Assembly (NCBI GenBank): GCA_000092065.1
Contig: CP000585.1
Direction: 5' to 3' (one strand)
From: Ostreococcus lucimarinus
Lineage: Eukaryota
Length of the DNA: 64,000 nucleotides
Shown here one piece after another: positions 7,523 to 55,945 of the stretch. The notes below the pieces were generated by a model. It made no database searches. It saw only the letters and a program-made list of their open reading frames with translations, and was not told the DNA's origin. The first letter of the stretch is position 1. Each line of letters begins with the position of its first letter. A program made the position numbers and the translations under genes.

Positions 7523-7554
<32 letters not shown>

Positions 7555-7556
7555 TC

Positions 7557-8585: not shown

Positions 8586-8623
8586 CGAGATAGTCATAGC
8601 AGGGCGATTCTTTGTGACAATTT

Positions 8624-10989: not shown

Positions 10990-11026
<37 letters not shown>

Positions 11027-11049
11027 CGCGCGACGCCCGACGGACGCAT
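10378..11049 (-). CDS. Hypothetical protein (possibly spurious ORF in a GC-rich divergent intergenic region)
   Basis: A 223-aa ORF lies between the E2 start (10111) and the SUN-gene start (11098). It begins with (GD)n and carries one mildly conserved-looking block (KFVEFDPSEAVTVRV). I recognise no family, and the compositional bias here makes any frame look coding. Confidence 0.2.
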
Positions 11050-11097
11050 TGTGCGGCCGACCGACCGACCGACCGACGCGTCACAACGCCGCGCGCG

Positions 11098-11247
11098 ATG
11101 CCCGCACGCGCGCCGGCGAGGACGCGCGCGCCGGCGACGAGCGCGGAGACGCGCGCGAAAAGCGCGACGCGCGCGCGCGGAGACGCGCGCGACACGCGCG
11201 GCGCGGACGCGCGCGATGATGATTTAAACGAAAAAGATGACCGTTCG

Positions 11248-11280
<33 letters not shown>

Positions 11281-16128: not shown

Positions 16129-16387
16129 AACGCAAACTTACGTAGCTCCCGTAGATTAATTTTGATGAAACTCAACAAAGACTATTAACGCTGCGAGCAC
16201 ACGGAAAGGGGCGCGCAAAGGACGCACAAAGTGGGCGTGGTTATTCAACCTTCTAAGCTAATACGGCAACTTGATAGCCTGTGGTTTCGTGATCGATGAA
16301 CATCACCGTTCACTCGCGCGGGTATAACGATATTACCCCGAGCGATGGGCGAGAGTGAAAGTATACAACGATGAAGCTCTTGCTCGC

Positions 16388-16879
<492 letters not shown>

Positions 16880-17762
16880 TCACGCAAAACATTCGAGCGT
16901 CCGTCAGTCTCCCGTACCCACATCGCGTCGCGTTTCGCTCTCAACCGCCCCCGCGACGTCGACGCCGCGCGCGCGCGACGCTCGACCGCCCCCGTCGCTC
17001 GTCCCATCGCCGCCCACGACGCCATCGACCCCACATTCGCGCGCATATCATCCAGCGATAATACACATCCCACGCCCACGCCCCATCGCCTCCCCTCGCG
17101 CGTCGGCGCCCATCGAGCCCTCCCATTTCCAACGCCACAGATCGAGCGCCAACGATCCAACGCGTGCGCGCACGATCAACGCCCTCTCGCGTTCCTCGAT
17201 CACCCGTTCGACCCGATCGCGCGCGCGACGCGCGCGACGAAATCTTCCCGCGCGATTTCCGCCGTCCGAGCCGACGCGCGACGCGCGACGCGCGACGTGG
17301 GCGGCGATTCCGCGCGACAATCCGAATCGCGCGATTATGCGCTGGAATCGTCCATCGTCGATCGTCGTCCGCGTCTCGTCGACGCGTCGCGATCGCGGCG
17401 CGCGCGCGGTATCCGCGGGCGCATCAAAACGCGCGCGCGTACCATGTCGTGTGATTTCGCGAAGTCGCGTCGCGGTGTGCGCGCGCGGGGGCGCGTGGTC
17501 GGAGTGTCGTCACCGCGCGCGCGAAACGATCTGATGGGCGTTTGTGGTATTAAATATGTAAATGTACATTTCAACCAACGCGTCGTTATACATAGAGCTG
17601 TCGTGTGATTTTATATGCACATCGCTCGTGATAAATTTTGTCGGTTTGAACGGTCGACGACGACAGCTCGAACCGCTCGAGCGACGCGCGCCAGAGCGAC
17701 GCGGGCGCGGGCGCGAACGCCAACGAGGAGCGACGGAAGGGAAGACGACGCGCTTTCGGACG

Positions 17763-19781: not shown

Positions 19782-19900
19782 AGATCAAGCCGCACGAATA
19801 TAGCGGGGAATGACGATGTAATATAACGACGACGCACGTAAAACGGAAAGCTTAGTAAATCGCTCACAACTGAAATTTTTCGCGCGCGAAGCGGCGCCCT

Positions 19901-20770
19901 CTACCAACCCGTCTCGGAGAACTTCGTGGGGTTGTAAAACTTTTCATAGCCCCATTCCGTGGGCACGGCGAACGGTTCGCTGATCGTCACCCCATCCTTC
20001 GTGACTTTACAAATTTGAAACTTGTTCATCATCTGCTTGTCGCGCATCACGCACGCGTACAGCGCCGATCGCATCACCTCCACCGCCTGCTCCTCCGTCA
20101 TATCAGCCTTGTAAAACTCTCTGAAAATCGGTCTCGCGATGTGATTGCCAAACCCAGCGCAGACGTGATCGTCTTCGTAGTGCGTTCCGATCATCCCCAC
20201 CGTGCCCAAAAACGTCTCCCCGTTTGTCTTCAATCCCGCGACGACGAGCGAGTTCCAGAGCGGATCGAACTTATTCCTCCGATTATACATCACTCGCGTG
20301 AGATATTGATAAATCTCCTCCGCGTCTCGCGTCATTCCATCGTCCTCGCAAAAGTCCTCCGTGGTCAACTCCTCCAACAGATTACACACGTACGTAAAAT
20401 CGCTCAGCTCCCCCGTGAACGCGATCGCGCACCGTTCGTTCACCTTCTTCACCCGTTCAACGTTTTTATACCTCTTCGTGCTTCCGTAGCACGCCAGCGT
20501 GTCGCACGCCAACAGCACGCCGTCGCCGTACTTCAGCCCCAGCGCGCTCGTCCCCGTCACGTACGGCGTCTGCGTTCGCGTCGTCGGCGCCTTCTCCCGC
20601 GCCTTCCCATCCAGCGTGAACGCGCGTCCGCTCGCCGGCGCGTGCGTCGTCGTCGCCGGTCCATCGCGCGCGTCGTCCCGCGCGCACGCCGCGTCGTACT
20701 CGGCGTCGACGCCGCGCGGCACCACGCCCGGGCCGATGATTGGATTGTGCGCGACTCTTCGCGGAATCAT
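19901..20770 (-). CDS. 20S proteasome subunit beta type-4 (β7/PBG-type) with a propeptide
   Basis: The start is at MIPRRVAHNP (residue 252 of the 540-aa track ORF; the upstream part is GC-rich antisense extension). TTRTQTPYVTGTSALGLKYGDGVLLACDTLACYGSTKRYKNVERVKKVN...LTRVMYNRRNKFDPLWNSLVVAG...FGNHIARPIFRE...NKFQICKVTKDGV aligns along its whole length with human PSMB4. Confidence 0.85.
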   Translation of the reverse strand: MIPRRVAHNPIIGPGVVPRGVDAEYDAACARDDARDGPATTTHAPASGRAFTLDGKAREKAPTTRTQTPYVTGTSALGLKYGDGVLLACDTLACYGSTKRYKNVERVKKVNERCAIAFTGELSDFTYVCNLLEELTTEDFCEDDGMTRDAEEIYQYLTRVMYNRRNKFDPLWNSLVVAGLKTNGETFLGTVGMIGTHYEDDHVCAGFGNHIARPIFREFYKADMTEEQAVEVMRSALYACVMRDKQMMNKFQICKVTKDGVTISEPFAVPTEWGYEKFYNPTKFSETGW

Positions 20771-21632
20771 CGCGTTCGGCGCGTCGTCGTCGTCGCGACG
20801 CGCGCCTTCGTCGTCGCGATCGTTCGCCGCGCGTTCGCTCGCGCGTCGTCGCGCGCTCGAGCGTCGCGCGCGCGTGTGCGGCGAACGGATCGATCGGATC
20901 GATCGGTCGCGCGCGCGACCGGGTCGCGCGTCGCGACACCGACGCGCGCGACGAGCGCGCGACGCGCGCGCGCGGCGCGCGACGAACGACCGCGGCGCGC
21001 GCGCGCGCGGCGCGCGATGCGGGACGCGCGCGCGACGACGCCGCACGACGTCGAGCTCGGCCATCGCGCCGAGGCGTCGACGAGCGACGCCGCGCGCGAC
21101 GACGACGCGACGACGCGCGACGGCGACGACGACGCGCGCGACGCGACGACGCGCGACGACGACGACGACGCGCGCGACGCGGCGTCCCCGGGACGGGCGC
21201 CGATCGGAGGGATCAACGAGGACGGGTACTTCGGCGACGCCGACGGCGCGTGGCTGCCGAGCGATCGCGTGCCGTTGGTGCTGCGCGCGCGAGAGGCGGC
21301 GATGGCGGCGGGAGAGGATTACGGACGGGACGTGCGAACGTTCCTCGGCGCCTTCGGATGGCCGATCGCGGCTTCGGCGTTTTGCGTGTTTCTGTTGATT
21401 TTCGCGCTCGAGGAATTCGGCGGCGCGAAGACGCGGCGACGCGGGCCGTGACGGGGGCGAGGCGTTCGGCGGCGGCGGCGACCGCGCGGGGGTGGTTTTT
21501 GCGTTGATATTTAGTAGACTCATTAAGGTGTGGCGCGGGCGCGCGATCGGGTCGATCGCGCGTCCGCGCGTAGTAGCGCGTTTTGCAATAGTACGCTCGC
21601 GTCAGAGCTTCGGCGCCGCACACGCGCGCGCG

Positions 21633-23135
21633 ATGCTCGCGCGCACGACGCGCGCGATGACGACGCTTGCGGTCGGCCATCGAGCGGCGTGTCGTCGCGC
21701 GCCGCGCGTCCGCGCGCGCGTCGCCGCGGCGTCCGAGACGTCGCACGCCGCCGCCGGTTCGTTCGGTTTCGCCTCGCGTCGCCGTCGCGCGGTCGTCGCC
21801 GCGGGGAGAGATCGCGTCGCGGACGTGTCGTCGGGAATATTCCTCGGCTCTGGACGCCTGGACGAGGGCGCGCCGCGCGCGGTGGACGCGAACACGGTGG
21901 TGCTGGGGATCGAGACGTCGTGCGACGACACGGCGGCGGCGGTGGTGCGAGGCGATGGCGTCGTCCTGGGCGAGGCGATCGCGTCGCAGGCGGCGATACA
22001 CGGACCGTGGGGAGGCGTCGTGCCGAATCTCGCGCGCGCGGCGCACGAGGAGGTGATCGATGACGTCGTGCGACGAGCGCTGACGGAGGCGGGGGTGTCG
22101 GCGGCGGATTTGAGCGCGGTGGCGGTGACGTGCGGACCCGGTTTGTCCATGTGCCTGCGCGTGGGCGTGCGTAAAGCGCAGCGGATGAGTGCAGAGTATG
22201 GGATTCCGATCGCGCCCGTGCATCACGTGGAGGCGCACGCGCTCGTTTCGCGGCTTTGCGCGGGGACGGAGACGGTTAAATTTCCGTTTCTGGCGCTGTT
22301 GGTGAGCGGAGGGCACAATTTGTTGATCAAAGCGCGCGGGGTGGGGGATTATACGATATTAGGAACAACATTAGATGATGCCTTGGGCGAGGCGTACGAC
22401 AAGACGGCGAGGCTGTTGGGGTTGCCCGTCGGCGGCGGCGGCGGACCGGCGTTGGAGAAACTCGCGCTCGAGGGCGACGAGAAGCGATTCAAGTTTCCCG
22501 TGCCGCTGCGTCAGCGTAAGAATTGCGATTTTTCCTACGCTGGATTGAAAACCGCGGCGCGTATGGCGATCGACGCCGAAATCGGAGGCGAAGACGTGGA
22601 GTGGGACGGCGTGGACAAGCGTCAGACGCGAGCCGACATCGCGGCGAGTTTCCAAGCCAAAGCGGTGAAACATCTCGAAGAGCGCATGCGTCGCGCTCTC
22701 ACGTGGGCGCTCGAGGACACCCCAGATTTATCGTGCGTCGTCGTCGCCGGCGGCGTCGCGGCGAACGCCACGGTTCGATCGACCCTGGTAAAAGTGGTGG
22801 AAGAAACCGGGCTTCCCCTCGTCTTTCCGCCGCCCAAGTGGTGCACGGACAACGGCGTCATGGTCGCCTGGACTGGATGCGAACGCCTCGCTCTCGGTCT
22901 CGCCGAGGCGCCCGTTGACGCCGAGCTTGAAGCAAAGCACGCGATGATGGATCCGCGCGACGTTCACGTCAATCTACTCCCGCGATGGCCGCTCGGAGAG
23001 AAAGACGCGCGCGCGACGGGCGACATTAAGAGCGGCAAGAAGGCTCGCATCGCCGACCCGCTCACCGGCGCCGGGCACCGCGACAGTGGCATTGCAGTCT
23101 CTCGCGACGCGGTTTCTAATAACTCCGATGACTAG
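21633..23135 (+). CDS. tRNA N6-adenosine threonylcarbamoyltransferase, mitochondrial-type (Kae1/TsaD family, Qri7/OSGEPL1-like)
   Basis: The N-terminus is a presequence (MLARTTRAMTTLAVGHR...). The core is VLGIETSCDDTAAAVV...HGPWGGVVPNLARAAHEEVID...VAVTCGPGLSMCLRVGVRKAQRMSAEYGIPIAPVHHVEAHA...LALLVSGGHNLLI...GTTLDDALGEAYDKTARLLGL, matching the Kae1/TsaD signature blocks. Confidence 0.8.
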   Translation: MLARTTRAMTTLAVGHRAACRRAPRVRARVAAASETSHAAAGSFGFASRRRRAVVAAGRDRVADVSSGIFLGSGRLDEGAPRAVDANTVVLGIETSCDDTAAAVVRGDGVVLGEAIASQAAIHGPWGGVVPNLARAAHEEVIDDVVRRALTEAGVSAADLSAVAVTCGPGLSMCLRVGVRKAQRMSAEYGIPIAPVHHVEAHALVSRLCAGTETVKFPFLALLVSGGHNLLIKARGVGDYTILGTTLDDALGEAYDKTARLLGLPVGGGGGPALEKLALEGDEKRFKFPVPLRQRKNCDFSYAGLKTAARMAIDAEIGGEDVEWDGVDKRQTRADIAASFQAKAVKHLEERMRRALTWALEDTPDLSCVVVAGGVAANATVRSTLVKVVEETGLPLVFPPPKWCTDNGVMVAWTGCERLALGLAEAPVDAELEAKHAMMDPRDVHVNLLPRWPLGEKDARATGDIKSGKKARIADPLTGAGHRDSGIAVSRDAVSNNSDD

Positions 23136-45723: not shown

Positions 45724-46905
45724 ATGACGACGACGCGCGGGATGACGATGCGAGCGCATCACGCGCGCGCGACGGTGACGACGACGAAGAGAGGGCGATG
45801 CGAGCGACGCGATAGGGCGCGAACGACGCCGCGGGCGCGGATTTATGAAAATATTCTCGAGACGGTCGGGGACACGCCGGTGATCAAGGTCAACCGACTG
45901 GCGCCGGCGGGGATCGATATGTACGTCAAGTGCGAGTATTTTAATCCGTTGAGCAGCGTGAAGGATCGATTGGCGGTGGCGGTGATCACGGATGCCGAAC
46001 GACGGGGGTTGTTGAAGCCGGGGGATACGGTGGTGGAGGCGACTTCGGGCAACACCGGGATCGCGGTGGCAATGGCGTGCGCTCAACGCGGCTACAGATG
46101 CGTCATCTGCATGGCCGAGCCGTTTTCTGTGGAACGTCGGAAGATCATGCGCATGCTCGGCGCGAAAGTCATCGTGACGCCGAAGGGGGGTAAAGGTACG
46201 GGGATGGTGGCCAAGGCGGAGGAATTGGCGGAAAAGAATGGTTGGTTTTTGTGCCGACAATTCGAGAACGAAGCCAATCCCGCGTACCACGCCTCGACTA
46301 CGGGGCCGGAAATCTTGCGAGACTTCGCGGGTAAGAAGCTCGACTATTTCGTCACCGGTTACGGCACCGGCGGTACGTTCCAGGGCGTCGCGCGAACGCT
46401 CAAGGAATCTCGTCCGGACACCAAGGTGATTTTGCTCGAACCCGAAGCCGCGGCGTTGGTGACTTCCGGCATCAAGACCGAGCGTAAGCCCACGGGCGCC
46501 CCGAATGGGTCTCATCCGGCGTTCGCGGCGCACCCTGTGCAAGGTTGGACGCCCGATTTCATCCCTTTGGTTCTCGAAAATGGTTTGAACATGAACCTCT
46601 ACGACGAACTCGTGAAGATCGAAGGCGGCGACGCCGTCAAGACGGCGCAAGCGTTGGCGAGAAGCGAAGGTATCTTCACCGGTATTTCTGGTGGCGCCAC
46701 GTTCGCCGGTGCGCTCAAGGTTGCCGAAAAGGCGCCGAAGGGCTCGGTGATCTTGGCGATGTTGCCGGATACGTCTGAGCGTTACATGAGCACGCCACTT
46801 TACGACTCGATCGAGGCGGACATGAACGAGGAAGAGCTCGAGATCGCGAAGTCGACGCCGTCTTTCCAACTTATCCCGGGCCAAGAACCGACGCTGCAAA
46901 TGTAA
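45724..46905 (+). CDS. Cysteine synthase / O-acetylserine (thiol)-lyase (PLP-dependent), organelle-targeted
   Basis: There is a true ATG. IYENILETVGDTPVIKVNRL...YVKCEYFNPLSSVKDRLAVAVI (PLP-lysine motif SSVKDR)...EATSGNTGIAVAMACAQRGYRCVICM... matches CysK along the full length. The N-terminus is an Arg/Thr-rich presequence. Confidence 0.85.
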   Translation: MTTTRGMTMRAHHARATVTTTKRGRCERRDRARTTPRARIYENILETVGDTPVIKVNRLAPAGIDMYVKCEYFNPLSSVKDRLAVAVITDAERRGLLKPGDTVVEATSGNTGIAVAMACAQRGYRCVICMAEPFSVERRKIMRMLGAKVIVTPKGGKGTGMVAKAEELAEKNGWFLCRQFENEANPAYHASTTGPEILRDFAGKKLDYFVTGYGTGGTFQGVARTLKESRPDTKVILLEPEAAALVTSGIKTERKPTGAPNGSHPAFAAHPVQGWTPDFIPLVLENGLNMNLYDELVKIEGGDAVKTAQALARSEGIFTGISGGATFAGALKVAEKAPKGSVILAMLPDTSERYMSTPLYDSIEADMNEEELEIAKSTPSFQLIPGQEPTLQM

Positions 46906-47046: not shown

Positions 47047-47892
47047 TCAAGGTGGCGACGAATCCGCGTCGTCGGCGTCTCTTCGTTCCTCCGCCCTCTT
47101 TTTCGCCTTTCTCCGCACTCTCGCCGTCCAAATGGTATCGCCCATCCCCGCCTCCGCTCGCGTCAAGCTCTCCTCTCTCTCCTTCGCCTTTTCCCAAATC
47201 AACCTCAACGTATCCGCCCTCTGCTGCAACTCCACGCGCCATAATAAACTCCCTATGATCATCACGCACGCATCGCTCAGCGCGCTCGCCACGGGCGACT
47301 CAAAACTCCCCGGCTCCATCGCAATCATCACCGCCTGCGCCGCCGCCGCGCTCGCGCTCAGCGCGTACACCACCAACCTCGGCCGTCTCAGCGGCGACGA
47401 CTTCCGCTCCGCCTCTATGATCGCTTGTGGCACGAATTCAGCGCCGACGACTCGTTCGAGTCGAGTTCCACTCTCGCTCGCGTCTCGCAGCGCCTCGACG
47501 CTGAAGATTTCCCGCAGCGGCGACGACGACGTATCGACGAGCAATTCCTTCCGCTTCGCGTCCACGTCGGGGTCGTCGTCCCACGCACCGTCGTCCCACG
47601 CATCGTCTTTGCTCTCGTCGTCGTCCGCCTCGCGCGCGCGCGCGCGCGCGCTCGCGCCGCGTTCAATGCTTTCGTCACGCGCGACAGCCCCACCGACGGC
47701 GCCGACGCGCGAGCGCGCCGACGCGCGCGCGACCCGCGGCGCGCGACGACGCGTCGACGGTGCGGATGCCGACGTTGTCGTCGCGCGGTGCGGCGAAATC
47801 GCGCGCATCGCACCGCGCGCGACGAACTGACGACGTCGCGCGCGAGGGTTGGTCCCTCGAGCGAGCGTCGCCGCTCGAGGTCGCGCGTCCAT
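47047..47892 (-). CDS. Hypothetical membrane protein
   Basis: This is a 281-aa ORF. The N-terminus is an Arg/Ala/Ser-rich presequence-like region. There is an acidic stretch (WDDGAWDDDPDVD) and two hydrophobic segments (LVVYALSASAAAAQAVMIAM, ALSDACVMIIGSLLW). Third codon positions are strongly G/C on this strand, unlike the overlapping + strand ORF. Confidence 0.35.
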   Translation of the reverse strand: MDARPRAATLARGTNPRARRRQFVARGAMRAISPHRATTTSASAPSTRRRAPRVARASARSRVGAVGGAVARDESIERGASARARAREADDDESKDDAWDDGAWDDDPDVDAKRKELLVDTSSSPLREIFSVEALRDASESGTRLERVVGAEFVPQAIIEAERKSSPLRRPRLVVYALSASAAAAQAVMIAMEPGSFESPVASALSDACVMIIGSLLWRVELQQRADTLRLIWEKAKEREESLTRAEAGMGDTIWTARVRRKAKKRAEERRDADDADSSPP

Positions 47893-47980: not shown

Positions 47981-49819
47981 CTACGATTTTTCGATCGTGT
48001 CGTCGACTTGTCGAAGCTTTTCGAGCGTCTTCGTGAGGTCGTCGATTTTGGATTTGAGCGCAGCGATGGCGTCGTCGCGGGACGCGGTCGACAGCGATGG
48101 TGGTGGTGAAGACGTGAGCTCGGCGCTCGGGGTGGGATCTATGCCGCCGACGTTCGCCGCTGCGGACGCGTTCGAAGCGTTGGGGGTGTTCGCTCCGACA
48201 AAATCTGGATCGATTGGTACGTCGCACGAGTGAATGCACGACTGTGATTCTTCCTGAGAGAAACCGATGATGTCCAGCTTACACATCGACGGACCGCAGC
48301 ACGGGGGTTGAATGACGTATTGAAAGTTTCCAAAACGTCCATCGCCTGGGAGCATGCCGGCGTACAATTTTTTCGCCGTGCGCTCGAATCCGAGGTCCAA
48401 CAAGTCGTGCACGCGCGCCTTGAATTTCGTGGCAAACTCGGGAGTAGCCATACCAAAGTACTCGTACACTTCTTCTTCTTCCATTGCGTCCACTTTTCGC
48501 AAGAATTCTTCAAACTGCTTTGGATACTTTTTACCGATCGACCCTCCGTCGACGTAGCATCGATAATCGAGCATCGCACCGAGAGTTGAAGGGGAGGGCC
48601 GCGCGGTATCACAGTTGTTCCGCAACGAACAGACCGTATGTATGAAGCCAACCCGGTAGGTTTCGAACTTTTGGCCTCCAGGAATAAGCATCGAATTCAA
48701 TTGGTTACGCATCGAGCTCTCGTTATCGATGCCGTGAATTAGACCATCCTCCGTGATGAATATGTTCTGACCGTGCCTATCGCCTTGTGAGGTCAGCAAA
48801 TCAAAAAGTGCCAATTTGAGTATCCTATCTGGGTCTATTTTGCGAAGTAACTCCAACAGCGTTGGCGTTATCCTTGGACCAAGAGATTCAAATCCGACGC
48901 CTGGCGCCGCGCCAAAGACCATGACGTCCATGTCTTGCTTCACACCCGACGACGTCTCCTTCCCCTCATCCCAGGGTGCGAAAGTTTTGGCCCGCATATA
49001 CTTAGCGCGTGGAATCACATCGCTCAACCCCGCTTCGTGTGATATCTTATCCAGGGCGCCCAGAAACGCTCCGTTACAAAACGTCCTCTTAGCCATGCCG
49101 CGCTCCGCTGAACAAAACGGCCCCTTCGTAAACGTCGGATGACTCGTCACCCTGTCGCTGCACGTTTCGCTCACCGTATCTTTCGTCCATATGAGTCGCT
49201 TGTAATCGCCTCTCACCCCACACCACGCCTTGACGAACACATCGAGCACCTCACCGTTCTCGCCGTCGCCGCCGCCGCTGAAGAAATCGCCATCCATGAT
49301 TTTCCCTTTCCACACCGGCGCGCCGCTCGCGCCGTGCGGTACGTCGACCGCGTCATCCCTAAACGTCGCCCGTTGTTCCATGCGCCCGATCAACACGTTA
49401 CATCCGTAACACGTCTTACAGTGCACTTTCCGCTTCGTCTTCTTCGTCGGCGCGTTCAACGCCACGCCGTCTGGCGCGTCGCCGAGCGCGCACGCCTCGC
49501 ACGTATCGCACGCGTCGTACGTCCCGACGAATCCGCCTTCGTCCTCGTCCTCGCCGTCGTCGTCCGAGCGAAATCCCGGTTCTTCCTCGTCGTCCTCCTC
49601 GCCGTCATCGTCGCCTTCGCGCGCCGCCTCGACGTCCCCGCGCGCCGCCGCCGCCTCGCGCGCCTCGCGCAGGCGCGCGCGCGCGCGCTCGACGTTCGAC
49701 GACGCGCTCGCGTCGACAACGCGCGCGCGCGCGACGACGAGCGCGCACGCGCACGCCGCGGCGAGCGCGACGACGCACCATCGCCGCGCGCGGCGTGCGC
49801 GGCGCGGGCGCGACGGCAT
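47981..49819 (-). CDS. Predicted type II membrane protein with a PI3/PI4-kinase-like catalytic motif (atypical kinase-like protein)
   Basis: The start is at MPSRPRRARRARRWCVVALAAACACALVVA, a signal anchor. An acidic/Cys-rich region follows (CDTCEACALG...CKTCYGC). A C-terminal domain carries ...LTSQGDRHGQNIFITEDGLIHGIDNESS..., resembling the GDRHxxN catalytic loop and hIDFG activation segment of PI3K/PI4K-family kinases. The family assignment is tentative. Confidence 0.45.
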   Translation of the reverse strand: MPSRPRRARRARRWCVVALAAACACALVVARARVVDASASSNVERARARLREAREAAAARGDVEAAREGDDDGEEDDEEEPGFRSDDDGEDEDEGGFVGTYDACDTCEACALGDAPDGVALNAPTKKTKRKVHCKTCYGCNVLIGRMEQRATFRDDAVDVPHGASGAPVWKGKIMDGDFFSGGGDGENGEVLDVFVKAWCGVRGDYKRLIWTKDTVSETCSDRVTSHPTFTKGPFCSAERGMAKRTFCNGAFLGALDKISHEAGLSDVIPRAKYMRAKTFAPWDEGKETSSGVKQDMDVMVFGAAPGVGFESLGPRITPTLLELLRKIDPDRILKLALFDLLTSQGDRHGQNIFITEDGLIHGIDNESSMRNQLNSMLIPGGQKFETYRVGFIHTVCSLRNNCDTARPSPSTLGAMLDYRCYVDGGSIGKKYPKQFEEFLRKVDAMEEEEVYEYFGMATPEFATKFKARVHDLLDLGFERTAKKLYAGMLPGDGRFGNFQYVIQPPCCGPSMCKLDIIGFSQEESQSCIHSCDVPIDPDFVGANTPNASNASAAANVGGIDPTPSAELTSSPPPSLSTASRDDAIAALKSKIDDLTKTLEKLRQVDDTIEKS

Positions 49820-49878
49820 CGCGCGCGCGACGGCGCGATGTGATGGTTCGGTTCGGTTGGTTGCGCGCTTGCAGAGCT

Positions 49879-51873
49879 CTAGCGCGAATCTACGGCGACG
49901 CGACTTTCGGCTAGCAGCTCGCGCAGGGCTCGGTTTAAGACGACGATGAGCTCGGTGAAATCCGGTCGAGCGTCGGGGGCGGTTTGCCAAGCGGGCACGA
50001 TGACGTCGTCGACCAACGCGCGGACGACGACGTCGTCGCGCGCGAACGGCGGCGCGTCCAGCGGTAGACGCTGCGATTGGATGGCGACGGCGAAGATGAT
50101 TTGCATGTGGTTCGCGAACCACTCCCAGGGGATCGACCGCGCGAGTGATTCCCACAGAAGGACGGAGAAGGAGAAGACGTCGCATTTGGTCGTCACCGCG
50201 TCGGCGTCGCCGTGAAAAAGCTCTGGAGCCATGTACGCGGGCGTTCCGGCGGTTCCGGCGGACGCGCCGCCGGCGCTCGTCGCCGAACCGCCGGCGCTGA
50301 GCAACGTCCGCTCAAGCGCGCGCGCGATGCCGAAATCCGCAACTTTGGCGCCACGGCCGTTGAGAAGCACGTTGTGCGATTTCAAGTCTCGGTGAACGAT
50401 GCATCTGGAGTGCAAATACGCCATCGCCTGCGCTACGTCGAGCGCTATCCTCACGACGTCGTCTAGACTCACGTCGTACTGCTTGTCTTGGTGAAGAAGC
50501 GCGTGCAAGCTTCCTCCGTCCATCATTTCCTCGACTATACAAAGATGCGGCAGCTTGAGACACGCTCCAAACATGCGCACGATTTTTGGATGTCGCACCG
50601 CGCTCAACACGGCGACTTCTCTCACGAACGTCTTCAAATCGCTCTTTCCAGCACCGGGTGGGACACCGTGTAACTTTTTCACCGCGACGACGCGTTTGTT
50701 CCACTTTCCCACGTACACCGCACCGTAAGCGCCCTGACCAATTAGTCTTCCGAGTTTGATGTTGCTGAGATGAATTTCAACGACGTCGTCGTCGTCGTCG
50801 GAAACCGTATTCGCATCCTTTGCGCTCTCCGCGTACGTCGCGAGCGACGCTTCGAATAAATCACCGTTGGTAGTTTTCTTTGCGCCTCGACGCGATGGAT
50901 GTGAGCCAGTGTTTATACGAGCCGTATCATCACCAGCGCGAGCGACCACGCCCTCCAAATCGTAATCTTTTGTTCTGAAGCATTGACCCGGTAACATGAG
51001 TGTATTTTTACGCTTCGCCGGCGCGATGATTTCATCGACGTCGACGTTTGCGAGCGGCACATCGTCGTCTTTACCAAACATGCACGATATCAACTGACGG
51101 ATAATTTCAATCATGAATACTAAGACGACCAGACAAGCGACGAGAAGCGCGCTCATCGTGCTTCCGTTTCTTAACCACGCCGTGCCGCCCGCCGCCGCTT
51201 GTGCGATGACGCCACCCTGCGCGACGACTGTTGGTCCACCCTGCGCGACGACTGTCGGTGGTTTTGGCGGCGCCGGTGGCGCTGGTGGAGGAAACGGTGG
51301 AGGCGATGGGACTACTCGTCCACAGCAGAACTGGTACTCTCTCCGAGCACACGTTCCGTCATCGATGAAGCTCACGGCGGAGTTCTCCATAAAGACCGGC
51401 GAGTTGCACCAGACACCGTTCACGGCGACTCGAAGGATGTTCGAGGGAATGTCGCCATTTGTGACGTAGCCAGTGAATGAAAATTGTCTTCGAGGGATGC
51501 CAAGTTGATTTACGACGCGTGCTGGCTGCCCTGAAGGCCCGCCTGGATTGATGAGCAACGCGTCCTCGACTCTGCCTTCGTGCACGCCCTGCCCGTTCGG
51601 AAAGATCCAAGCGACTTGCCAGCTCGCCAGTGCCTCTGGATGAACACTCGTCATTGTAAACGTACCGGTGAATAGATTTAAATCATCGTCGTCGCTCTCT
51701 GCCGAGAGCTCCGTGGCGTACGCGACATCTATGCTGCACCTCGCGCAAGGTCGCGTCGAGTCGTCGCACTCGCGACAAGTTTGCGCCAAGCTGCTCCGTA
51801 TAGGCAAGACGAGCGCGCCGAGGGCGCCTACAATTATCCGTACCGAGACATAACCCCGATGACATTTCTTCAT
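49879..51873 (-). CDS. Receptor-like protein kinase: signal peptide, extracellular Pro-rich domain, one transmembrane helix, intracellular Ser/Thr/Tyr kinase domain
   Basis: The start is at MKKCHRGYVSVRIIVGALGALVLP (signal peptide). A PSPPPFPPPAPPAPPKPP segment follows, then a TM helix (LLVACLVVLVFMIEII). The kinase has the expected subdomains: IGQGAYGAVYVGKW...VAVKKL (ATP-binding Lys), HRDLKSHNVLL (catalytic loop), KVADFGIAR (DFG), TPAYMAPE, and DVFSFSVLLWE. Confidence 0.75.
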   Translation of the reverse strand: MKKCHRGYVSVRIIVGALGALVLPIRSSLAQTCRECDDSTRPCARCSIDVAYATELSAESDDDDLNLFTGTFTMTSVHPEALASWQVAWIFPNGQGVHEGRVEDALLINPGGPSGQPARVVNQLGIPRRQFSFTGYVTNGDIPSNILRVAVNGVWCNSPVFMENSAVSFIDDGTCARREYQFCCGRVVPSPPPFPPPAPPAPPKPPTVVAQGGPTVVAQGGVIAQAAAGGTAWLRNGSTMSALLVACLVVLVFMIEIIRQLISCMFGKDDDVPLANVDVDEIIAPAKRKNTLMLPGQCFRTKDYDLEGVVARAGDDTARINTGSHPSRRGAKKTTNGDLFEASLATYAESAKDANTVSDDDDDVVEIHLSNIKLGRLIGQGAYGAVYVGKWNKRVVAVKKLHGVPPGAGKSDLKTFVREVAVLSAVRHPKIVRMFGACLKLPHLCIVEEMMDGGSLHALLHQDKQYDVSLDDVVRIALDVAQAMAYLHSRCIVHRDLKSHNVLLNGRGAKVADFGIARALERTLLSAGGSATSAGGASAGTAGTPAYMAPELFHGDADAVTTKCDVFSFSVLLWESLARSIPWEWFANHMQIIFAVAIQSQRLPLDAPPFARDDVVVRALVDDVIVPAWQTAPDARPDFTELIVVLNRALRELLAESRVAVDSR

Positions 51874-51963
51874 CTGCGCGCGCGAGCATGTCACGACGAG
51901 ACCCGCTCGAGATGGCGAACCGTTACATTCGAGGCGACCTCGCCGACGCAAACGTCAGCCGCC

Positions 51964-52752
51964 TTAACTTTCTTCGATTCCATCGCCATCGTCTTCGCTC
52001 GCGCCGTCGCCTTCCCCGCTGAACGTCACCTTTTTACGAACACGTCGCACGCTCATCGCGCTCGCACCGAACGCGCCCAACGACGAATCGCCGCCGCTCC
52101 CCGTCATCGCCCACGGCGCGACGCCGTCGCCGCCGCGCATCGTCTGCGCCACCATCGACCGCACGCCGCTCGTCCTCGCCCCCGGTCCGCACTCTCCTCG
52201 ATCGAACCCACCTCCTATAATCCCTCCGCGTCCTCGTCCTGCCGCGAACACGTGCCCAGACCTCGGTCCCGCGCCCGTCCCCGCCGACGCCGGCGGCGGC
52301 GCCTTCATCGCGTACCGATCGCTCTCCCACGCCTCCTCGTCTCGACTCAGCCGCACCAACACCCGTCCCGACGCATCATCTTCCCTCACTTCGTGCACGC
52401 GCTGTTTTCGCGCGATCCCGACGTATTCACCGTTCAAATCTCTGTACACGCGTTCGCCCGTCGTCAGCGCGACGTGATACCGGTGCCACGGGCACACCGC
52501 GCACGCCCCTCGCCCCGGCACCTCCTCGATCTCCGCCCACAGCAGCGGTCCGCCCATGTGATAGCACGTCGCGTCGATCGCGTGCAAGCGCGCGCTCGGC
52601 GCCGGCGCGCGCACGAGCGCGAGGTGTCGTCCCGCGACGCACACCGCGCGCCGCGCGTTCGACCGGGACACCTCTTCGACGCCGCAGACGTCGTGCCAGC
52701 CGTCGTCGCGCGCCGTCGCGTCGCGCGTCGCGCGCGCGGCGTTCGCGCGCAT
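51964..52752 (-). CDS. Rieske [2Fe-2S] domain-containing protein
   Basis: There is a true ATG. The two Rieske boxes are CYHMGGPL (CxH) and CPWHRYH (CxxH), separated by 22 residues in a roughly 100-aa N-terminal domain. The C-terminal half is Gly/Arg-rich. Confidence 0.65.
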   Translation of the reverse strand: MRANAARATRDATARDDGWHDVCGVEEVSRSNARRAVCVAGRHLALVRAPAPSARLHAIDATCYHMGGPLLWAEIEEVPGRGACAVCPWHRYHVALTTGERVYRDLNGEYVGIARKQRVHEVREDDASGRVLVRLSRDEEAWESDRYAMKAPPPASAGTGAGPRSGHVFAAGRGRGGIIGGGFDRGECGPGARTSGVRSMVAQTMRGGDGVAPWAMTGSGGDSSLGAFGASAMSVRRVRKKVTFSGEGDGASEDDGDGIEES

Positions 52753-52852
52753 CGCGTCGTCCGCGCTCGAGCGCGCGCGACGCGATCGCGGCGCAGTGCC
52801 GCGCGCGAGAGAGAGAGTTCGTTAGCCGACGCGTCAGACGCGGACGCGCGGC

Positions 52853-53329
52853 ATGTTCGTCGTCGCGCGCGCGCGCGCGACGCCCGCGCGCGCTCGGACG
52901 CGCGCCGAGGCGAAGGCGCGCGCGTCGACGCGCGCGACGCGCGCGACGCGCGCGACGCCGCGCGCGAAGGCGACGTTTGGGTTTCGTCGACGAGAGTTCG
53001 TGAACGCGCTGACGACGTTCGGCGTGCTCGCGCTGTTCGACCGGTCCTCGGACGAGGACGAGGACGAGGAGGAGGAGGAGGAGGAGGAGGAGACGCTGGT
53101 GGACGAAGACGGGCGCGCGGTGTGGTACGACGAGGAGACGGAGGCGTATTATTACTACGAGGACGAAGACGGCGAGGCGTTCGCGGAGGAGGAGGAGGAG
53201 GAGGAGGAGGAGGAGGAAGAATACGTCGACGAGGAAGACGACGAGGCGTACGTCGGAGAAGACGAGGAGGCGCGCGAGGGTGAGGACGAGGCGTATCGCG
53301 ACGACGCGGAGGAGGAGGACGAAGGATGA
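52853..53329 (+). CDS. Hypothetical small protein: presequence-like N-terminus, one hydrophobic helix, and a highly acidic (Glu/Asp/Tyr) tail encoded by (GAG)n
   Basis: This 158-aa ORF has an Arg/Ala/Thr-rich N-terminus, a FVNALTTFGVLALF helix, and a tail DEDEDEEEEEEEEE...YYYYEDEDGE.... It lies divergently 100 bp from the Rieske gene start and convergently with the FHA gene, which fits the local gene packing. The low complexity keeps confidence modest. Confidence 0.35.
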   Translation: MFVVARARATPARARTRAEAKARASTRATRATRATPRAKATFGFRRREFVNALTTFGVLALFDRSSDEDEDEEEEEEEEETLVDEDGRAVWYDEETEAYYYYEDEDGEAFAEEEEEEEEEEEEYVDEEDDEAYVGEDEEAREGEDEAYRDDAEEEDEG

Positions 53330-53400: not shown

Positions 53401-54204
53401 TCAAGATTCCACGACGTCTTCACGCAGTAATACGTAATCTCTCGAGCTGTGAGCAAACTTGATGACGTCCTTGGACTTTAACCGCACGTACGCTTTGGCT
53501 TCGATCGCGCGCTTGTTCACGCGCGTCCCGTTCGCGCTTCCCAAATCGTACGCGTACGGTTCGCTCCCGCGCCCGTCGTCTAAATCTCGAAACTGAATCA
53601 CGCAGTGCTGCTTCGAACAGCTCGGGTGGTCGCTCGGAATATCCACCACCGCTCGATCGCGTCCAATCAGATAACTCGTCTTCGAACCGGACAACTTGTA
53701 CGGCGGCTCGCACTCGACGTCCCCCTTGAAGCAATACAACCGCCACGCCGCGCTCGGCGGTTTTGCCTCCCCCAGCGGCTCGCTATGTTTCAGCGCCACC
53801 CCTCGCACCGAGTTCGTCTCCGCGGCGAGCAATCCGCTCAGCGCAAAGTTCGCTTCCTCCTTCGGAACCTTCGGCGCGTCCTCCGCCGCCGCCGCGCCGA
53901 CGCCGCCGTACGTCCCTCCATCGCCCGGTCTCGCGAGCGCCGCCCGCGCGCCCGCGCCCGCGCGCGCGTCGTCGCGAGCGCCGTCTCGCGCGTCGCGATC
54001 GCGCGAGTCATCGCGTCGTCGCCGCGTCGTCCGCGCGTTCGAATCGTCGTCGTCCGCCTCCCGCGAGCGTTCGTCTCGACCTCGCGCGCGTCCCGCGACC
54101 GAGCACGACCCCGCGCGTCGCGCGCGATCGTCGTCGTCATCGTCGTCGCGCGTCGACCGCGCGCGCGCGGTGTCCAGGTCACCGTCGCGCGCGCGCGCCG
54201 TCAT
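53401..54204 (-). CDS. FHA domain-containing protein (SNIP1-like)
   Basis: The start is at MTARARDGD. The C-terminal FHA domain is YLIGRDRAVVDIPSDHPSCSKQHCVIQFRD...YAYDLGSANGTRVNKRAIEAKAYVRLKSKDVIKFAHSSRDYVLL (GR.....D......SR.HA...........D.GS.NGT.vN). The N-terminal half is an Arg/Asp-rich low-complexity region, as in SNIP1. Confidence 0.7.
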   Translation of the reverse strand: MTARARDGDLDTARARSTRDDDDDDDRARRAGSCSVAGRARGRDERSREADDDDSNARTTRRRRDDSRDRDARDGARDDARAGAGARAALARPGDGGTYGGVGAAAAEDAPKVPKEEANFALSGLLAAETNSVRGVALKHSEPLGEAKPPSAAWRLYCFKGDVECEPPYKLSGSKTSYLIGRDRAVVDIPSDHPSCSKQHCVIQFRDLDDGRGSEPYAYDLGSANGTRVNKRAIEAKAYVRLKSKDVIKFAHSSRDYVLLREDVVES

Positions 54205-54259
54205 GACGAAACGAATCCAATCTTCGGCGCCGCGGAGTGGCGCCACTCGCGCGCGCGCC

Positions 54260-54264
<5 letters not shown>

Positions 54265-54300
<36 letters not shown>
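54265..54300 (+). repeat. (ACG)12 trinucleotide microsatellite in the FHA/helicase divergent region
   Basis: Direct reading: cgacgacgacgacgacgacgacgacgacgacgacg, 54262-54300. Confidence 0.9.
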
Positions 54301-54302
<2 letters not shown>

Positions 54303-54322
54303 CATCGCTCGCGCGACCGCGC

Positions 54323-54392
54323 ATGCTCGCGCTCGCGCGTCGCGCGTGCGGCGCGACGCGACGAATGCGCGCGGCGGCGGCGGCGGCGCGAC

Positions 54393-54430
<38 letters not shown>

Positions 54431-55945
54431 CGAACGGCGACGCGCGGACGCGCGCGGACGTGGACGCGCGGCGCGGTGGCGTGGACGCGCGCGGACGCGG
54501 GCGCGAGCGCGACGACGGTCGGGACGCGGCGCGGGGAGGCGCGAGGGACGGCGCGAGGGACGGCGACGACGACGCGAGGGACGTTCGAGGACGCGGGATT
54601 GACGGACGAGAGCCTGCGACGGGCGCTGGAGAACATGAACATCGTGGAACCTACGGAGATACAGACGAAGGCGATCGATGTCATCGGTCGAGGGGCGGGG
54701 AACGCGTTCGTCGCGTCGCACACGGGGAGCGGGAAGACGTTGGCGTACTTGTTGCCGGTGATTCAACGCATGAAGGCGGCGGAGATCGCGGCGGGGGATC
54801 GGTTGGCGAAACCGAAGAGACCGAAAGTGGTCGTGGCGTGCCCGACGCGAGAGCTGGCGGAACAAGTCGCGGAGGTGGCGAAGGCGTTGAGTCACGTGGC
54901 GAAATTTAGTTCGTATTTAGTCGTCGGAGGTAGACGTTTAGGGACGCAAAAGGAGCGGTTAGACTCCGCGATCGATGTCGTGATCGGGACTCCGGGTCGA
55001 TTGATCAAGCACGTCGATCAGGGGAACTTATTCTTGGGGAGCGTGGACGCGATGGTGTTGGACGAGGCGGACACGCTCTTTGAAGCCGGATTTGGCGACG
55101 AGGTAAAGCGGTTGTTACGACCACTCAAGGCGCGTCCAGAGGGAAAGACGTGCGTCCTCGTCTCGGCCACCATGCCGGATCGACTAAAGAAGCTCGTGGA
55201 CGAGGAGCTTCCGGCTTTGCAGTACATTAAGACGGATTCATTGCATCGCTCCGCGCCAGGGCTCAAGCACCGCTTCGTCGACTGTCCGGGCGACGTGGAC
55301 AAGATGACGGTGCTCGAGCAAATCGTCGCGCCCGAGCACAAACAGGGGAAAAAGCTGATGATCTTTTGCAACACGCTTCCCTCGTGCATCGCGGTCGAGC
55401 GCACCATGTTCGAGGCAGATATTCGCACCGTGCAGTACCACGGCGACATGACGAGCGACGCTCGCGCCGACGCCATGCGCGAATTCATCGACGCCGACGC
55501 CGACGAAAACCTCACCATGGTGTGCACCGACCTCGCCGCTAGAGGTTTGGATTTTGGTCGCGTCAAGGTCGATCACGTGGTGAACTTTGACTTCCCCATG
55601 AACTCGCTCGACTACATTCACCGCTCCGGTCGCACCGCTCGCGCGGGCGCCGGCGGTAAAGTCACCAACCTCGTCGCCAAAAAGGACCGCGTTCTCGCGA
55701 GCGAGATCGACAACGCCGTCAAGCTCGGTCTGCCGATCGACAACGCCACGAGCTCACGCGCCGTGAGCGAAGCTCGCAAGAAAAAATCCATCGCCGACGC
55801 TCGCGACAGGCGCACCGGAGGCCGTTCTCGCGCCAAGCCGAGCACCGTGCGCGATTCCAAACCTTCCAACCGCGGTCGTCGCGGCGCCGCGCGGTTCACC
55901 ACGGACGACACTAAGACTAAGCCTTCCAACCGAGGTCGTCGCTGA
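54323..55945 (+). CDS. DEAD-box ATP-dependent RNA helicase, organelle-targeted
   Basis: The start is at MLALARRACG; an alternative upstream ATG lies at 54203. The Q motif is TFEDAGL...PTEIQ. The helicase motifs are I ASHTGSGKT, Ia PTRELA, II VLDEAD, III SAT, and VI HRSGRTARAG. The presequence contains a (Thr)12 run and a (Thr-Ala)n stretch. Confidence 0.85.

What the first reader, a model, noticed from the sequence alone, without database searches (positions are those of the whole stretch)
47981..51873. Tandem pair of membrane kinase genes; the upstream one has a PI3/PI4-kinase-like catalytic motif in a predicted lumenal/extracellular domain
Gene 47981..49819 has a signal-anchor N-terminus and a Cys-rich segment (CDTCEAC..., CKTCYGC). 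After that comes a domain with GDRHGQNIFI...IHGIDNE, resembling the catalytic-loop and activation-segment motifs of lipid-kinase-fold (PI3K/PI4K-like) enzymes; I could not place the domain in a known secretory-pathway kinase family from memory. A kinase-like fold on the non-cytosolic side would be unusual and worth characterising. Immediately downstream on the same strand, 60 bp away, is a conventional receptor-like Ser/Thr kinase (49879..51873) with a Pro-rich ectodomain.
Basis: partly seen in the sequence, partly recalled or inferred. Interest (0 to 1): 0.5.

Follow-up and report, generated by a model that had tools for sequence, protein, structure and literature searches.

The report
Secretory-pathway PI4K-like kinase beside receptor kinase
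A green picoalga gene encodes an unannotated kinase that folds like a type II phosphatidylinositol 4-kinase. It carries a secretory signal and 18 conserved cysteines, so it probably works inside the Golgi/ER lumen, perhaps phosphorylating glycans. The gene next to it encodes a membrane receptor-type kinase.

Summary
Two intronless genes lie 59 bp apart, but on the minus strand, so the receptor-type kinase B (49879-51873) is transcriptionally upstream of gene A (47981-49819).

Gene A (612 aa):
- It has one N-terminal hydrophobic segment, with flank charges of +7 on the N side and +1 on the C side.
- This is followed by an acidic stem, a CxxCxxC...CxxCxxC module and a kinase-fold domain.
- K197, D347-R-H-x-Q-N352 and D365-N-E are invariant in its orthologues; K197, D347, N352 and D365 are kept in at least 90% of a 63-member family alignment.
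- No Pfam model reaches threshold for A itself, but 20 of 63 relatives touch PF00454.
- The family has about 480 representatives, all "hypothetical". It mostly carries signal sequences and 10-22 cysteines.
- One near relative is fused to sulfotransferase, GT47 and GT90 domains inside a hydroxyproline-arabinosylation gene cluster. An Ostreococcus paralogue sits head-to-head with a GT77 gene.

Best reading: A is an active lumenal atypical kinase, most likely a glycan kinase. The substrate is inferred, not shown.

Gene B is a TKL (Raf/CTR1-like) kinase with receptor architecture and a possibly CBM2-like ectodomain. It is not a classic RLK/Pelle kinase.

The A-B adjacency reflects general synteny. 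In three relatives an EamA transporter gene lies between them.

The parts
47981..49819 (-). Gene A: 612-aa secretory-pathway atypical kinase (PI4K type II-like fold), intronless ORF including stop
   Evidence: ORF and translation. 99% identical 612-aa product on metagenome contigs. Family of about 480 representatives.
49724..49780 (-). A residues 14-32: the only hydrophobic segment (WCVVALAAACACALVVARA), a signal peptide or type II signal anchor. It is preceded by MPSRPRRARRARR (net +7).
   Evidence: Kyte-Doolittle scan. Flank charges +7/+1. A small-residue DASAS motif after it is conserved in orthologues.
49532..49702 (-). A residues ~40-96: acidic low-complexity 'stem' (42% D+E), variable in length between orthologues
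   Evidence: Composition. Gappy, poorly conserved alignment columns.
49400..49510 (-). A residues 104-140: Cys-rich module CxxCxxC-x23-CxxCxxC, invariant and conserved across the wider family
   Evidence: broad consensus CxxCxxC...CxxCxGC. Modelled as beta strands packed before the N-lobe, pLDDT 74-82.
48290..49345 (-). A residues ~159-510: kinase-fold core. G-loop GASG 163-166, beta3 Lys197, catalytic loop D347-R-H-G-Q-N352, metal-binding D365-N-E, family-specific IPGGQK (379-384) and DYRC (418-421) motifs, C-lobe helices.
47984..48187 (-). A residues ~545-612: S/T/P/A-rich linker with two NAS sequons, then a conserved C-terminal amphipathic or coiled-coil-like helix
   Evidence: Conserved LR..I.AL...L..LR.VE pattern.
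49820..49878 (.). 59-bp spacer between the stop of gene B and the start of gene A
   Evidence: Coordinates.
49879..51873 (-). Gene B: 664-aa single-pass receptor-architecture kinase. Signal-like segment 7-25, CxxC-x6-CxxC, conserved beta-rich ectodomain (~45-185), Pro-rich linker (~188-205), TM 240-258 and a TKL-type kinase domain 372-644.

Best explanation
Gene A encodes a catalytically competent atypical kinase of the PI3/PI4-kinase superfamily, closest in fold to type II PI 4-kinases. Its N-terminal signal peptide or type II anchor targets it into the secretory pathway, so the disulfide-rich Cys module and the kinase domain face the ER/Golgi lumen or are secreted. There it would use lumenal ATP. 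K197 would hold the phosphates, D347/N352 would form the catalytic loop and D365 would bind the metal. The enzyme would phosphorylate a hydroxyl group on secretory cargo.

The most likely substrate class is a sugar residue of O-glycans or matrix polysaccharide. That would make A a lumenal glycan kinase, working like Fam20B or POMK but built on a PI4K-II-like scaffold.

Shown: the gene, the kinase fold, conservation of the catalytic residues, the secretory-type N-terminus, the conserved cysteines and the family's domain fusions.
Inferred: lumenal location, catalytic activity and substrate class.

Gene B is an independent TKL-type receptor-architecture kinase. It lies next to A through conserved block synteny, not through demonstrable functional coupling.
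For: Fold:
- AF2 model pTM 0.80.
- Foldseek also ranks PI4K2A/2B first.

Sequence:
- PF00454 is the only recurrent Pfam hit: 20/63 family members at E<=0.01, best 4e-9. It is above gathering threshold in distant members.
- A chlorophycean member is named 'PI3K/PI4K catalytic domain-containing protein' by UniRef.

Active site:
- K197, D347, R348, N352 and D365 are at least 90% conserved or invariant in 63 diverse members.
- All are invariant in the 14 Mamiellales sequences.
- The catalytic loop aligns to D308/N313/D346 of PI4K2A (sequence verified against 4hnd).

Topology:
- A has a single N-terminal hydrophobic segment with +7/+1 flank charges.
- 18 conserved cysteines follow it.
- 47/67 complete relatives have an N-terminal hydrophobic segment and none has a later TM.
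- Paralogues such as P0025 and P0031 have textbook short signal peptides.

Glycan link:
- P0026 (E 1.4e-73 to the Mamiellales profile) fuses this kinase domain to Sulfotransfer_1, Exostosin GT47 and GT90 domains.
- P0026 lies in a cluster with HPAT+GT77, four further GT77-type (Nucleotid_trans) genes, a PAP-phosphatase-like/UAA-transporter fusion and an epimerase/GLF gene.
- The Ostreococcus paralogue P0075 is head-to-head with a GT77 gene.
- Orthologues of A in three species are head-to-head with an EamA/DMT transporter gene.
- Green-algal HRGP O-glycans are known to be sulfated and to carry arabinose phosphodiesters (PMC9818292).
- The ancestral Fam20 activity is a glycan kinase that cross-talks with exostosin-like GTs (PMC7948968).
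Against: - No biochemical, localisation or expression data exist.
- A itself scores only 13.8 bits on PF00454, against a cut-off of 27.1. Profile-to-PDB and hhalign matches cover only about 40-55 residues at E 0.006-0.1.
- TM-scores to PI4K2A are low, 0.29-0.38.
- The model has low-confidence loops. I could not inspect coordinates for disulfides or pocket geometry.
- The glycan inference rests on one fusion protein from a different, AT-rich organism (GC 37%) and on two gene neighbourhoods. Gene clustering in eukaryotes is weak evidence.
- The other fusion partner, Cupin_8, points equally to protein modification.
- I could not identify the window organism. Its genome resembles Ostreococcus (see full report), a genus that, from my own knowledge, has no wall or scales, so the physiological glycan target is unclear.
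- No dedicated signal-peptide predictor was available.
- The Arg-rich N-region plus an AxA-like site could also be read as a Tat-like or organellar signal.
Confidence: 0.55

Rival explanations
1. A is a lumenal or secreted PROTEIN kinase (Fam20C/Fjx1/VLK-like in role) that phosphorylates Ser/Thr/Tyr, or hydroxylated residues, of secretory proteins rather than sugars.
For: It has the same fold and topology evidence as the best explanation. Weak catalytic-loop matches to Fam20A are the best PDB sequence hits (E 0.0057). The structural neighbours HipA, CtkA, CotH and actin-fragmin kinase are protein kinases. The Ostreococcus paralogue is fused to a Cupin_8/JmjC-type domain, a protein-modifying oxygenase fold.
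Against: The closest fold is an inositol-hydroxyl kinase, not a protein kinase. The richest fusion and neighbourhood evidence is with glycosyltransferases, a sulfotransferase and nucleotide-sugar transport. PF06702 is matched by only 2/63 members.
Confidence: 0.25
2. A is a membrane-anchored lipid kinase (a true PI 4-kinase type II relative) whose catalytic domain faces the cytosol. On this reading the N-terminal segment is a reverse anchor and the cysteines are metal ligands or acylation sites.
For: PI4K type II is the best structural match. PF00454 is the nearest Pfam family. Type II PI4Ks are membrane-bound through a Cys-rich motif (own knowledge; CCPCC is seen in the sequence verified). 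CxxCxxC pairs could bind Zn or Fe-S.
Against: The positive-inside rule (+7 before, +1 after the segment) puts the domain outside the cytosol. 18 conserved cysteines are spread over the whole domain. Paralogues have short cleavable-type signal peptides. The family is fused to lumenal GT47/GT90/sulfotransferase domains behind a single N-terminal anchor. There is no CCPCC motif. Identity to PI4K2A is 9-13%.
Confidence: 0.07
3. A is targeted to the plastid or thylakoid lumen (a Tat-like RR + hydrophobic + AxA signal) rather than to the ER/Golgi.
For: The N-terminus is MPSRPRRARRARR followed by an Ala-rich hydrophobic stretch and VDA|SAS. This superficially resembles twin-arginine lumenal signals.
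Against: There is no stromal transit-peptide segment ahead of the hydrophobic core, only 13 residues. The high Arg/Ala content is expected in a 62% GC genome. Homologues from other lineages have ordinary ER-type signals and are fused to Golgi enzymes. The density of conserved cysteines fits the ER oxidative-folding pathway.
Confidence: 0.05
4. A is a catalytically dead pseudokinase or carbohydrate/protein-binding scaffold, like Fam20A.
For: The best PDB sequence hit is the pseudokinase Fam20A. No activity data exist.
Against: All canonical catalytic positions (Lys197, Asp347, Asn352, Asp365, the Gly-rich loop) are retained. They are at least 90% conserved across a divergent family, 19-56% identical to A. 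That is the pattern of an active enzyme.
Confidence: 0.05

Closest known systems
Type II phosphatidylinositol 4-kinases (PI4K2A/PI4K2B; Pfam PF00454 superfamily)
   Different: Only 9-13% identity. A itself is below the Pfam threshold. It has a secretory signal, 18 conserved cysteines and an extra CxxCxxC module. It lacks the CCPCC palmitoylation motif and has predicted lumenal rather than cytosolic-face topology. It carries its own invariant motifs (IPGGQK, DYRC). The substrate is probably not PI.
Fam20/Four-jointed secretory-pathway kinases (Fam20B xylosylkinase, Fam20C Golgi casein kinase)
   Same: Same cell-biological logic: an N-terminal anchor or signal, a disulfide-rich atypical kinase domain in the Golgi lumen, and a DRH...(L/I)DN catalytic core that aligns to Fam20A. 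Fam20B is a glycan kinase that cross-talks with exostosin-type GTs (PMC7948968), which parallels the GT47 fusion in P0026.
HipA / CtkA / CotH / actin-fragmin kinase / Legionella MavQ atypical kinases
   Different: These are bacterial or cytosolic protein or lipid kinases. They lack the secretory signal, the cysteine framework and the glycan-enzyme associations seen here.
Plant RLK/Pelle receptor-like kinases (comparison for gene B)
   Same: Signal peptide, ectodomain, single TM and a cytosolic Ser/Thr kinase of the TKL group.
   Different: The best solved-structure matches are TNNI3K, CTR1, TAK1, RIPK2 and Raf rather than IRAK/BRI1-type kinases. The O. tauri kinome paper reports no RLKs but 13 TKLs (PMC4143559). 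The ectodomain has no LRR, LysM or lectin Pfam domain. Its only hint is CBM2-like.

Membership tests
PI3/PI4-kinase superfamily (Pfam PF00454) | Sequence match to PF00454 above the gathering score | tested here: not met
   A scores 13.8 bits, E 0.057, against a cut-off of 27.1, and only over residues 346-376. However, 20/63 family members hit at E<=0.01 and distant members exceed the cut-off (P0051 40.9 bits, P0149 29.3 bits). Membership is therefore transitive and at superfamily level only.
PI3/PI4-kinase superfamily (Pfam PF00454) | Catalytic loop DRHxxN and downstream metal-binding Asp (DFG-equivalent) | tested here: met
   D347-R-H-G-Q-N352 and D365-N-E are invariant in 14 sequences and at least 90% conserved or invariant in 63. 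They align to PI3K-gamma GDRHNDN...IDFG and PI4K2A DRGNDN...IDNG.
PI3/PI4-kinase superfamily (Pfam PF00454) | Bilobal kinase fold closest to PI3K/PI4K structures | tested here: met
Type II PI 4-kinase family (PI4K2A/B, LSB6) | Cytosolic-face membrane association via a palmitoylated CCPCC motif; no signal sequence | tested here: not met
   There is no CCPCC. A has an N-terminal signal or anchor with positive-inside charge and conserved cysteines throughout.
Type II PI 4-kinase family (PI4K2A/B, LSB6) | Phosphorylates the 4-OH of phosphatidylinositol | not testable with these tools
   Requires an enzyme assay.
Fam20/Fjx1 secretory kinases (Pfam PF06702) | Sequence match to PF06702 | tested here: not met
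   No hit for A. 1/11 orthologues at E 0.093. 2/63 family members at E>=0.0026.
Fam20/Fjx1 secretory kinases (Pfam PF06702) | N-terminal signal/anchor with a lumenal, disulfide-bonded kinase domain | tested here: met
   This is prediction only: hydropathy and charge, conserved cysteines and family-wide N-terminal hydrophobic segments. No experimental localisation.
Fam20/Fjx1 secretory kinases (Pfam PF06702) | Fold closest to Fam20 structures | tested here: not met
RLK/Pelle receptor-like kinases (gene B) | Signal peptide + ectodomain + single TM + cytosolic kinase | tested here: met
   Hydrophobic segments at 7-25 and 240-258. Kinase domain at 372-644.
RLK/Pelle receptor-like kinases (gene B) | Kinase domain belongs to the RLK/Pelle (IRAK) clade | tested here: inconclusive
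   The top PDB matches are TNNI3K, CTR1, TAK1, RIPK2 and Raf, with none of the IRAK/BRI1 type among the best 60. No phylogeny was made. The literature reports no RLKs in O. tauri.
CBM2 carbohydrate-binding module (gene B ectodomain) | Sequence or fold match to CBM2 | tested here: inconclusive
   The only PDB profile hit is the ChiC chitin-binding domain 2rtt, E 0.025 over 44 residues. Pfam CBM_2 hits at E 0.14 in 1 of 5 orthologues. The AF2 model is unreliable (pLDDT 46) and gives only generic beta-sandwich hits.

The most novel reading that the evidence does not exclude
Gene A would be a founding member of an undescribed, widespread family of Golgi-lumenal glycan kinases built on a PI4K type II-like scaffold. 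The family would install phosphate, including the precursor of sugar-phosphodiester cross-links, on O-glycans or matrix polysaccharides of green algae and other protists. It would work alongside Hyp-arabinosyltransferases (HPAT/GT77), GT47/GT90 transferases and sulfotransferases. That would make it the missing enzyme class for glycan phosphorylation outside animals.
Probability: 0.3. Interest if true: 0.75.

Novelty: new variant of a known kind. Interest (0 to 1): 0.55.

Why it matters
The secretory-pathway kinases considered here (Fam20A/B/C, Fjx1, POMK, VLK) are all animal enzymes. My literature searches found no secretory-pathway kinase described for plants or algae.

A conserved PI4K-II-like kinase family with secretory signals would therefore matter in three ways:
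- It would show that the lipid-kinase branch of the kinase superfamily was independently recruited into the secretory lumen.
- It would give a candidate enzyme for the phosphate found on green-algal extracellular-matrix glycans (arabinose phosphodiesters in Volvox, PMC9818292).
- It would provide a small, intronless, experimentally tractable gene in a picoalga related to the model genus Ostreococcus, in which to test lumenal phosphorylation outside Metazoa.

The family has no Pfam model and only 'hypothetical protein' names, so defining it would improve the annotation of hundreds of algal and protist genes.

The neighbouring TKL kinase with receptor architecture is also of interest, because the model relative O. 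tauri is reported to have no receptor-like kinases (PMC4143559).

Tried and rejected
- Direct Pfam and PDB sequence searches with A alone or with the shallow orthologue profile gave only sub-threshold hits. An ABC-transporter hit (E 0.007) covers C-lobe helices and was dismissed as spurious, because it vanished with the broader profile.
- hhalign of the family profiles against the verified PI4K2A sequence aligned only the catalytic segment (probability <3%). Sequence alone therefore cannot prove type II PI4K membership.
- The afdb50 fold library was unavailable, so annotated AlphaFold relatives could not be surveyed.
- A word-indexed search with the 63-member profile added few sequences and no names.
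With P0026 it found no viral relative, so I dropped the idea that the glycan cluster (L009) is from a known giant virus. Its origin remains unknown (GC 37%).
- Functional coupling of A and B was rejected. The whole block Rieske-B-(EamA)-A-PALP-YABBY-zfHIT-SET is collinear in relatives, and an EamA gene separates B and A in three of them. There is no EamA homologue anywhere in this window and no paralogue of A or B.
The permitted shallow alignment gave an unusable model.
- Literature searches for a described lumenal PI4K-like or algal secretory kinase found nothing relevant. The library is limited to open-access papers.
- The long + strand ORFs overlapping A and B (for example 49139-49843 and 51781-53283) are Arg/Ala-rich antisense artefacts of the high GC content.

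Full report
**1. What is in the sequence**

The two ORFs named in the finding exist, but both are on the minus strand. Gene A is 47981..49819(-) and encodes 612 aa. Gene B is 49879..51873(-) and encodes 664 aa. They are separated by 59 bp.

The window is 62% GC and gene-dense, with no sign of introns in these two genes. Near-identical (99%) contigs occur in marine metagenomes. A paralogue's cluster contains Ostreococcus tauri proteins. The block synteny matches other Mamiellales-type contigs. The organism is therefore an Ostreococcus-like picoalga. The exact species was not identified.

All quoted motifs are present: CDTCEAC (104-110), CKTCYGC (134-140) and GDRHGQNIFITEDGLIHGIDNE (346-367).

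**2. Anatomy of protein A**

A Kyte-Doolittle scan finds one hydrophobic segment (residues 14-32) and nothing else. It is preceded by MPSRPRRARRARR (net +7) and followed by a +1 flank. By the positive-inside rule the N-terminus stays cytosolic and the rest is translocated. I cannot decide between a cleaved signal peptide and a type II anchor. A conserved small-residue motif (D-A-S-A-S) follows the segment.

The rest of the protein, in order:
- an acidic, length-variable stem (residues ~40-96, 42% D+E);
- the CxxCxxC-x23-CxxCxxC module;
- a ~350-residue conserved core;
- an S/T/P-rich linker with two NAS sequons;
- a conserved C-terminal amphipathic helix.

Eighteen cysteines follow the signal. 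All are invariant or at least 90% conserved in 14 orthologues/paralogues. This is the signature of an oxidatively folded, non-cytosolic domain.

**3. It is a kinase fold, closest to type II PI 4-kinase**

Pfam gives A only a sub-threshold PF00454 hit on the catalytic loop (13.8 bits). PDB sequence searches are non-significant.

An AlphaFold2 model of residues 95-548, built with 11 aligned sequences, has pLDDT 73 and pTM 0.80.
- Foldseek independently puts PI4K2A/2B on top (E 5.6e-5, probability 1.00), although TM-scores are only 0.29-0.38.

Using a PI4K2A sequence that I verified against 4hnd, hhalign aligns D347/N352/D365 of A with D308/N313/D346 of PI4K2A. By eye, the G-loop/beta3 region (HGASGAPVW...VFVKAW) mirrors QGSSGSYFV...AVFKPK (K152).

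**4. The family**

An exhaustive HMM search of 1.84 billion cluster representatives found 480 proteins at E<=1e-3 and 238 at E<=1e-10.

A 63-member alignment, 19-56% identical to A, has these properties:
- D365, D418 and R420 are invariant.
- K197, G307, D347, R348, N352, S376, P380, Y419 and C421 are kept in at least 90%.
- The CxxCxxC...CxxCxGC module is in the consensus.

This is the conservation pattern of an active enzyme, not a pseudokinase.

Scanning those 63 members one by one, PF00454 is hit by 20 (best E 4e-9). Fam20C and ABC1 are hit by 2 each and Pkinase by 1. Some Cys-free, multi-repeat distant members exceed the PF00454 gathering score. With the broad profile, the best PDB sequence hits are the catalytic loops of Fam20A (E 0.0057) and PI3K-gamma (0.027).

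Named members are all 'hypothetical' or 'unnamed'. The exception is a Chlamydomonadales protein that UniRef calls a 'PI3K/PI4K catalytic domain-containing protein'. Another member comes from the snow alga Sanguina.

I found no paper describing the family.

**5. Topology across the family**

Of 67 members with a plausible complete N-terminus, 47 have an N-terminal hydrophobic segment ahead of the domain, and none has a later TM. The cysteine counts listed for these members are mostly 10-22. Paralogues such as P0025 (MRATLTLALLVAAFAAVSSDAS...) and P0031 have short, classical ER-type signal peptides. This argues against a plastid or Tat reading of A's Arg-rich N-region.

**6. Clues to function**

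Three observations link the family to Golgi glycan modification.

(i) P0026 is among the closer relatives of A (E 1.4e-73). It is a 2055-aa protein in which a single N-terminal anchor is followed by the kinase domain, an RCC1-like propeller, a sulfotransferase, an Exostosin/GT47 domain and a GT90 domain. Its 79-kb contig carries, immediately around it:
- an HPAT (hydroxyproline O-arabinosyltransferase)+GT77 fusion;
- four more GT77-type (Nucleotid_trans) genes;
- an Inositol_P (PAP-phosphatase-like)+UAA nucleotide-sugar/PAPS-type transporter fusion;
- an epimerase/GLF gene.

(ii) The Ostreococcus paralogue P0075 (kinase domain + Cupin_8) is divergently paired, 84 bp apart, with a GT77-type gene (PF03407, 27.1 bits).

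(iii) In three more distant Mamiellales genomes the orthologue of A is head-to-head, 24-107 bp apart, with an EamA/DMT-family transporter gene.

Independently, green-algal HRGP O-glycans are known to be sulfated and to carry arabinose phosphodiester bridges (PMC9818292). In animals the ancestral Fam20 activity is a glycan (xylose) kinase that controls exostosin-like transferases (PMC7948968).

I therefore favour a lumenal glycan kinase. This step is inference. A lumenal protein kinase is the main rival. The Cupin_8 fusion and the protein-kinase structural neighbours keep it alive.

**7. Gene B and the 'pair'**

B has a signal-like segment, a CxxC-x6-CxxC motif and a conserved beta-rich ectodomain. 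These are followed by a Pro-rich linker, a strong TM (240-258) and a kinase domain.

The kinase's best solved relatives are TNNI3K, CTR1, TAK1, RIPK2 and Raf. That makes it TKL/Raf-MLK-like rather than RLK/Pelle. The O. tauri kinome paper reports 13 TKLs and no RLKs.

The ectodomain's only database hints are a chitin-binding domain of ChiC (2rtt, E 0.025; CBM2 by my own knowledge) and Pfam CBM_2 (E 0.14 in 1 of 5 orthologues). Its AF2 model was too poor to use.

The adjacency of A and B is part of a collinear block: Rieske-B-[EamA]-A-small ORF-cysteine synthase-YABBY-zf-HIT-SET. This block is conserved in relatives where an EamA gene sits between B and A. In this window EamA is absent. There is therefore no evidence that the two kinases form a functional module. 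Co-expression could not be tested.

**8. Comparison and membership**

A works like a Fam20/POMK-type secretory kinase, but it fails Fam20 membership: there is no PF06702 match and the structural score is lower.

It is structurally a PI3/PI4-kinase-superfamily protein nearest type II PI4Ks, but it fails the defining type II features. It is not on the cytosolic face, has no CCPCC motif and is not above the Pfam threshold.

The honest filing is a new, unannotated family within the PI3/PI4K-like atypical kinases that has been recruited to the secretory lumen.

**9. Verdict**

- Observation: confirmed.
- First-reader interpretation: supported, with corrections on strand order, the nature of B and the lack of evidence for a functional pair.
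- Novelty: new variant of a known kind.
- Interest: 0.55. It would be higher if glycan-kinase activity were shown.

Noticed in passing
window 51304-51792 (-), gene B residues ~28-190: B's ectodomain is well conserved among orthologues. It has a C..V.Y ... SWQV.W.F..G ... VNG..C pattern reminiscent of CBM2 carbohydrate-binding modules. The only PDB profile hit is the ChiC chitin-binding domain 2rtt (E 0.025). Pfam CBM_2 hits at E 0.14 in 1 of 5 orthologues. The AF2 model was too poor (pLDDT 46) to confirm.
   Followed up: partly
L004:4870-5964(-), L006:4824-5894(-), L008:3951-5069(-): In three related Mamiellales genomes an EamA/DMT-family transporter gene lies between the B and A orthologues. 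It is head-to-head with A, 24-107 bp apart, which suggests a possible shared promoter. It is absent from this 64-kb window (tblastn).
   Followed up: partly
L009:8001-14168 (P0026) and flanks 5943-22168: A 2055-aa fusion of the A-type kinase domain with RCC1-like, sulfotransferase, GT47 and GT90 domains. It is embedded in a cluster of HPAT+GT77, four further GT77-type genes, an Inositol_P+UAA transporter fusion and an epimerase/GLF gene. The contig is AT-rich (GC 37%) and of unknown origin. Several genes look split, by frameshifts or introns.
   Followed up: partly
L012:5183-7870 (P0075) and L012:2955-5099(-): An Ostreococcus paralogue of A (cluster includes O. tauri XP_003077921.2) carries a C-terminal Cupin_8/JmjC-like domain. 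It is divergently paired, 84 bp apart, with a GT77-type (PF03407) gene.
   Followed up: partly
window 49400-49510 (-) and 51736-51777 (-): Both A (T-Y-D-A-C-D-T-C-E-A-C) and B (Q-T-C-R-E-C-D-D...C-A-R-C) begin their mature ectodomains with acidic CxxC-type motifs. I did not establish whether this reflects a shared module or chance.
   Followed up: no
window 49820-50185 (-) and + strand ORFs 49139-49843, 51781-53283: The ORF containing A runs 122 codons upstream of its real start and overlaps B's 3' end. Long Arg/Ala-rich ORFs on the opposite strand overlap both genes. These are typical high-GC artefacts, not genes.
   Followed up: yes
window 45724-46905 (+), 51964-52752 (-), 53401-54723 (-), 47047-47892 (-): Neighbours are a PALP-domain protein (cysteine-synthase-like by my reading; PF00291 on the orthologous gene in L001), a Rieske-domain protein, a gene at the position where related contigs carry an FHA-domain gene, and a 281-aa protein with no Pfam match directly downstream of A. 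The same order recurs in related genomes.
   Followed up: partly
P0041, P0051, P0141, P0149, P0157 (distant family members): These relatives are Cys-free or Cys-poor (0-6 Cys), and several have multiple repeats of the domain. They pass or nearly reach the PF00454 threshold, and some also show HipA_C/HipA_2/Fam20C signals (P0141 and P0157 for Fam20C). They may be cytosolic or bacterial cousins that bridge this family to PI3/PI4K, HipA and Fam20.
   Followed up: no
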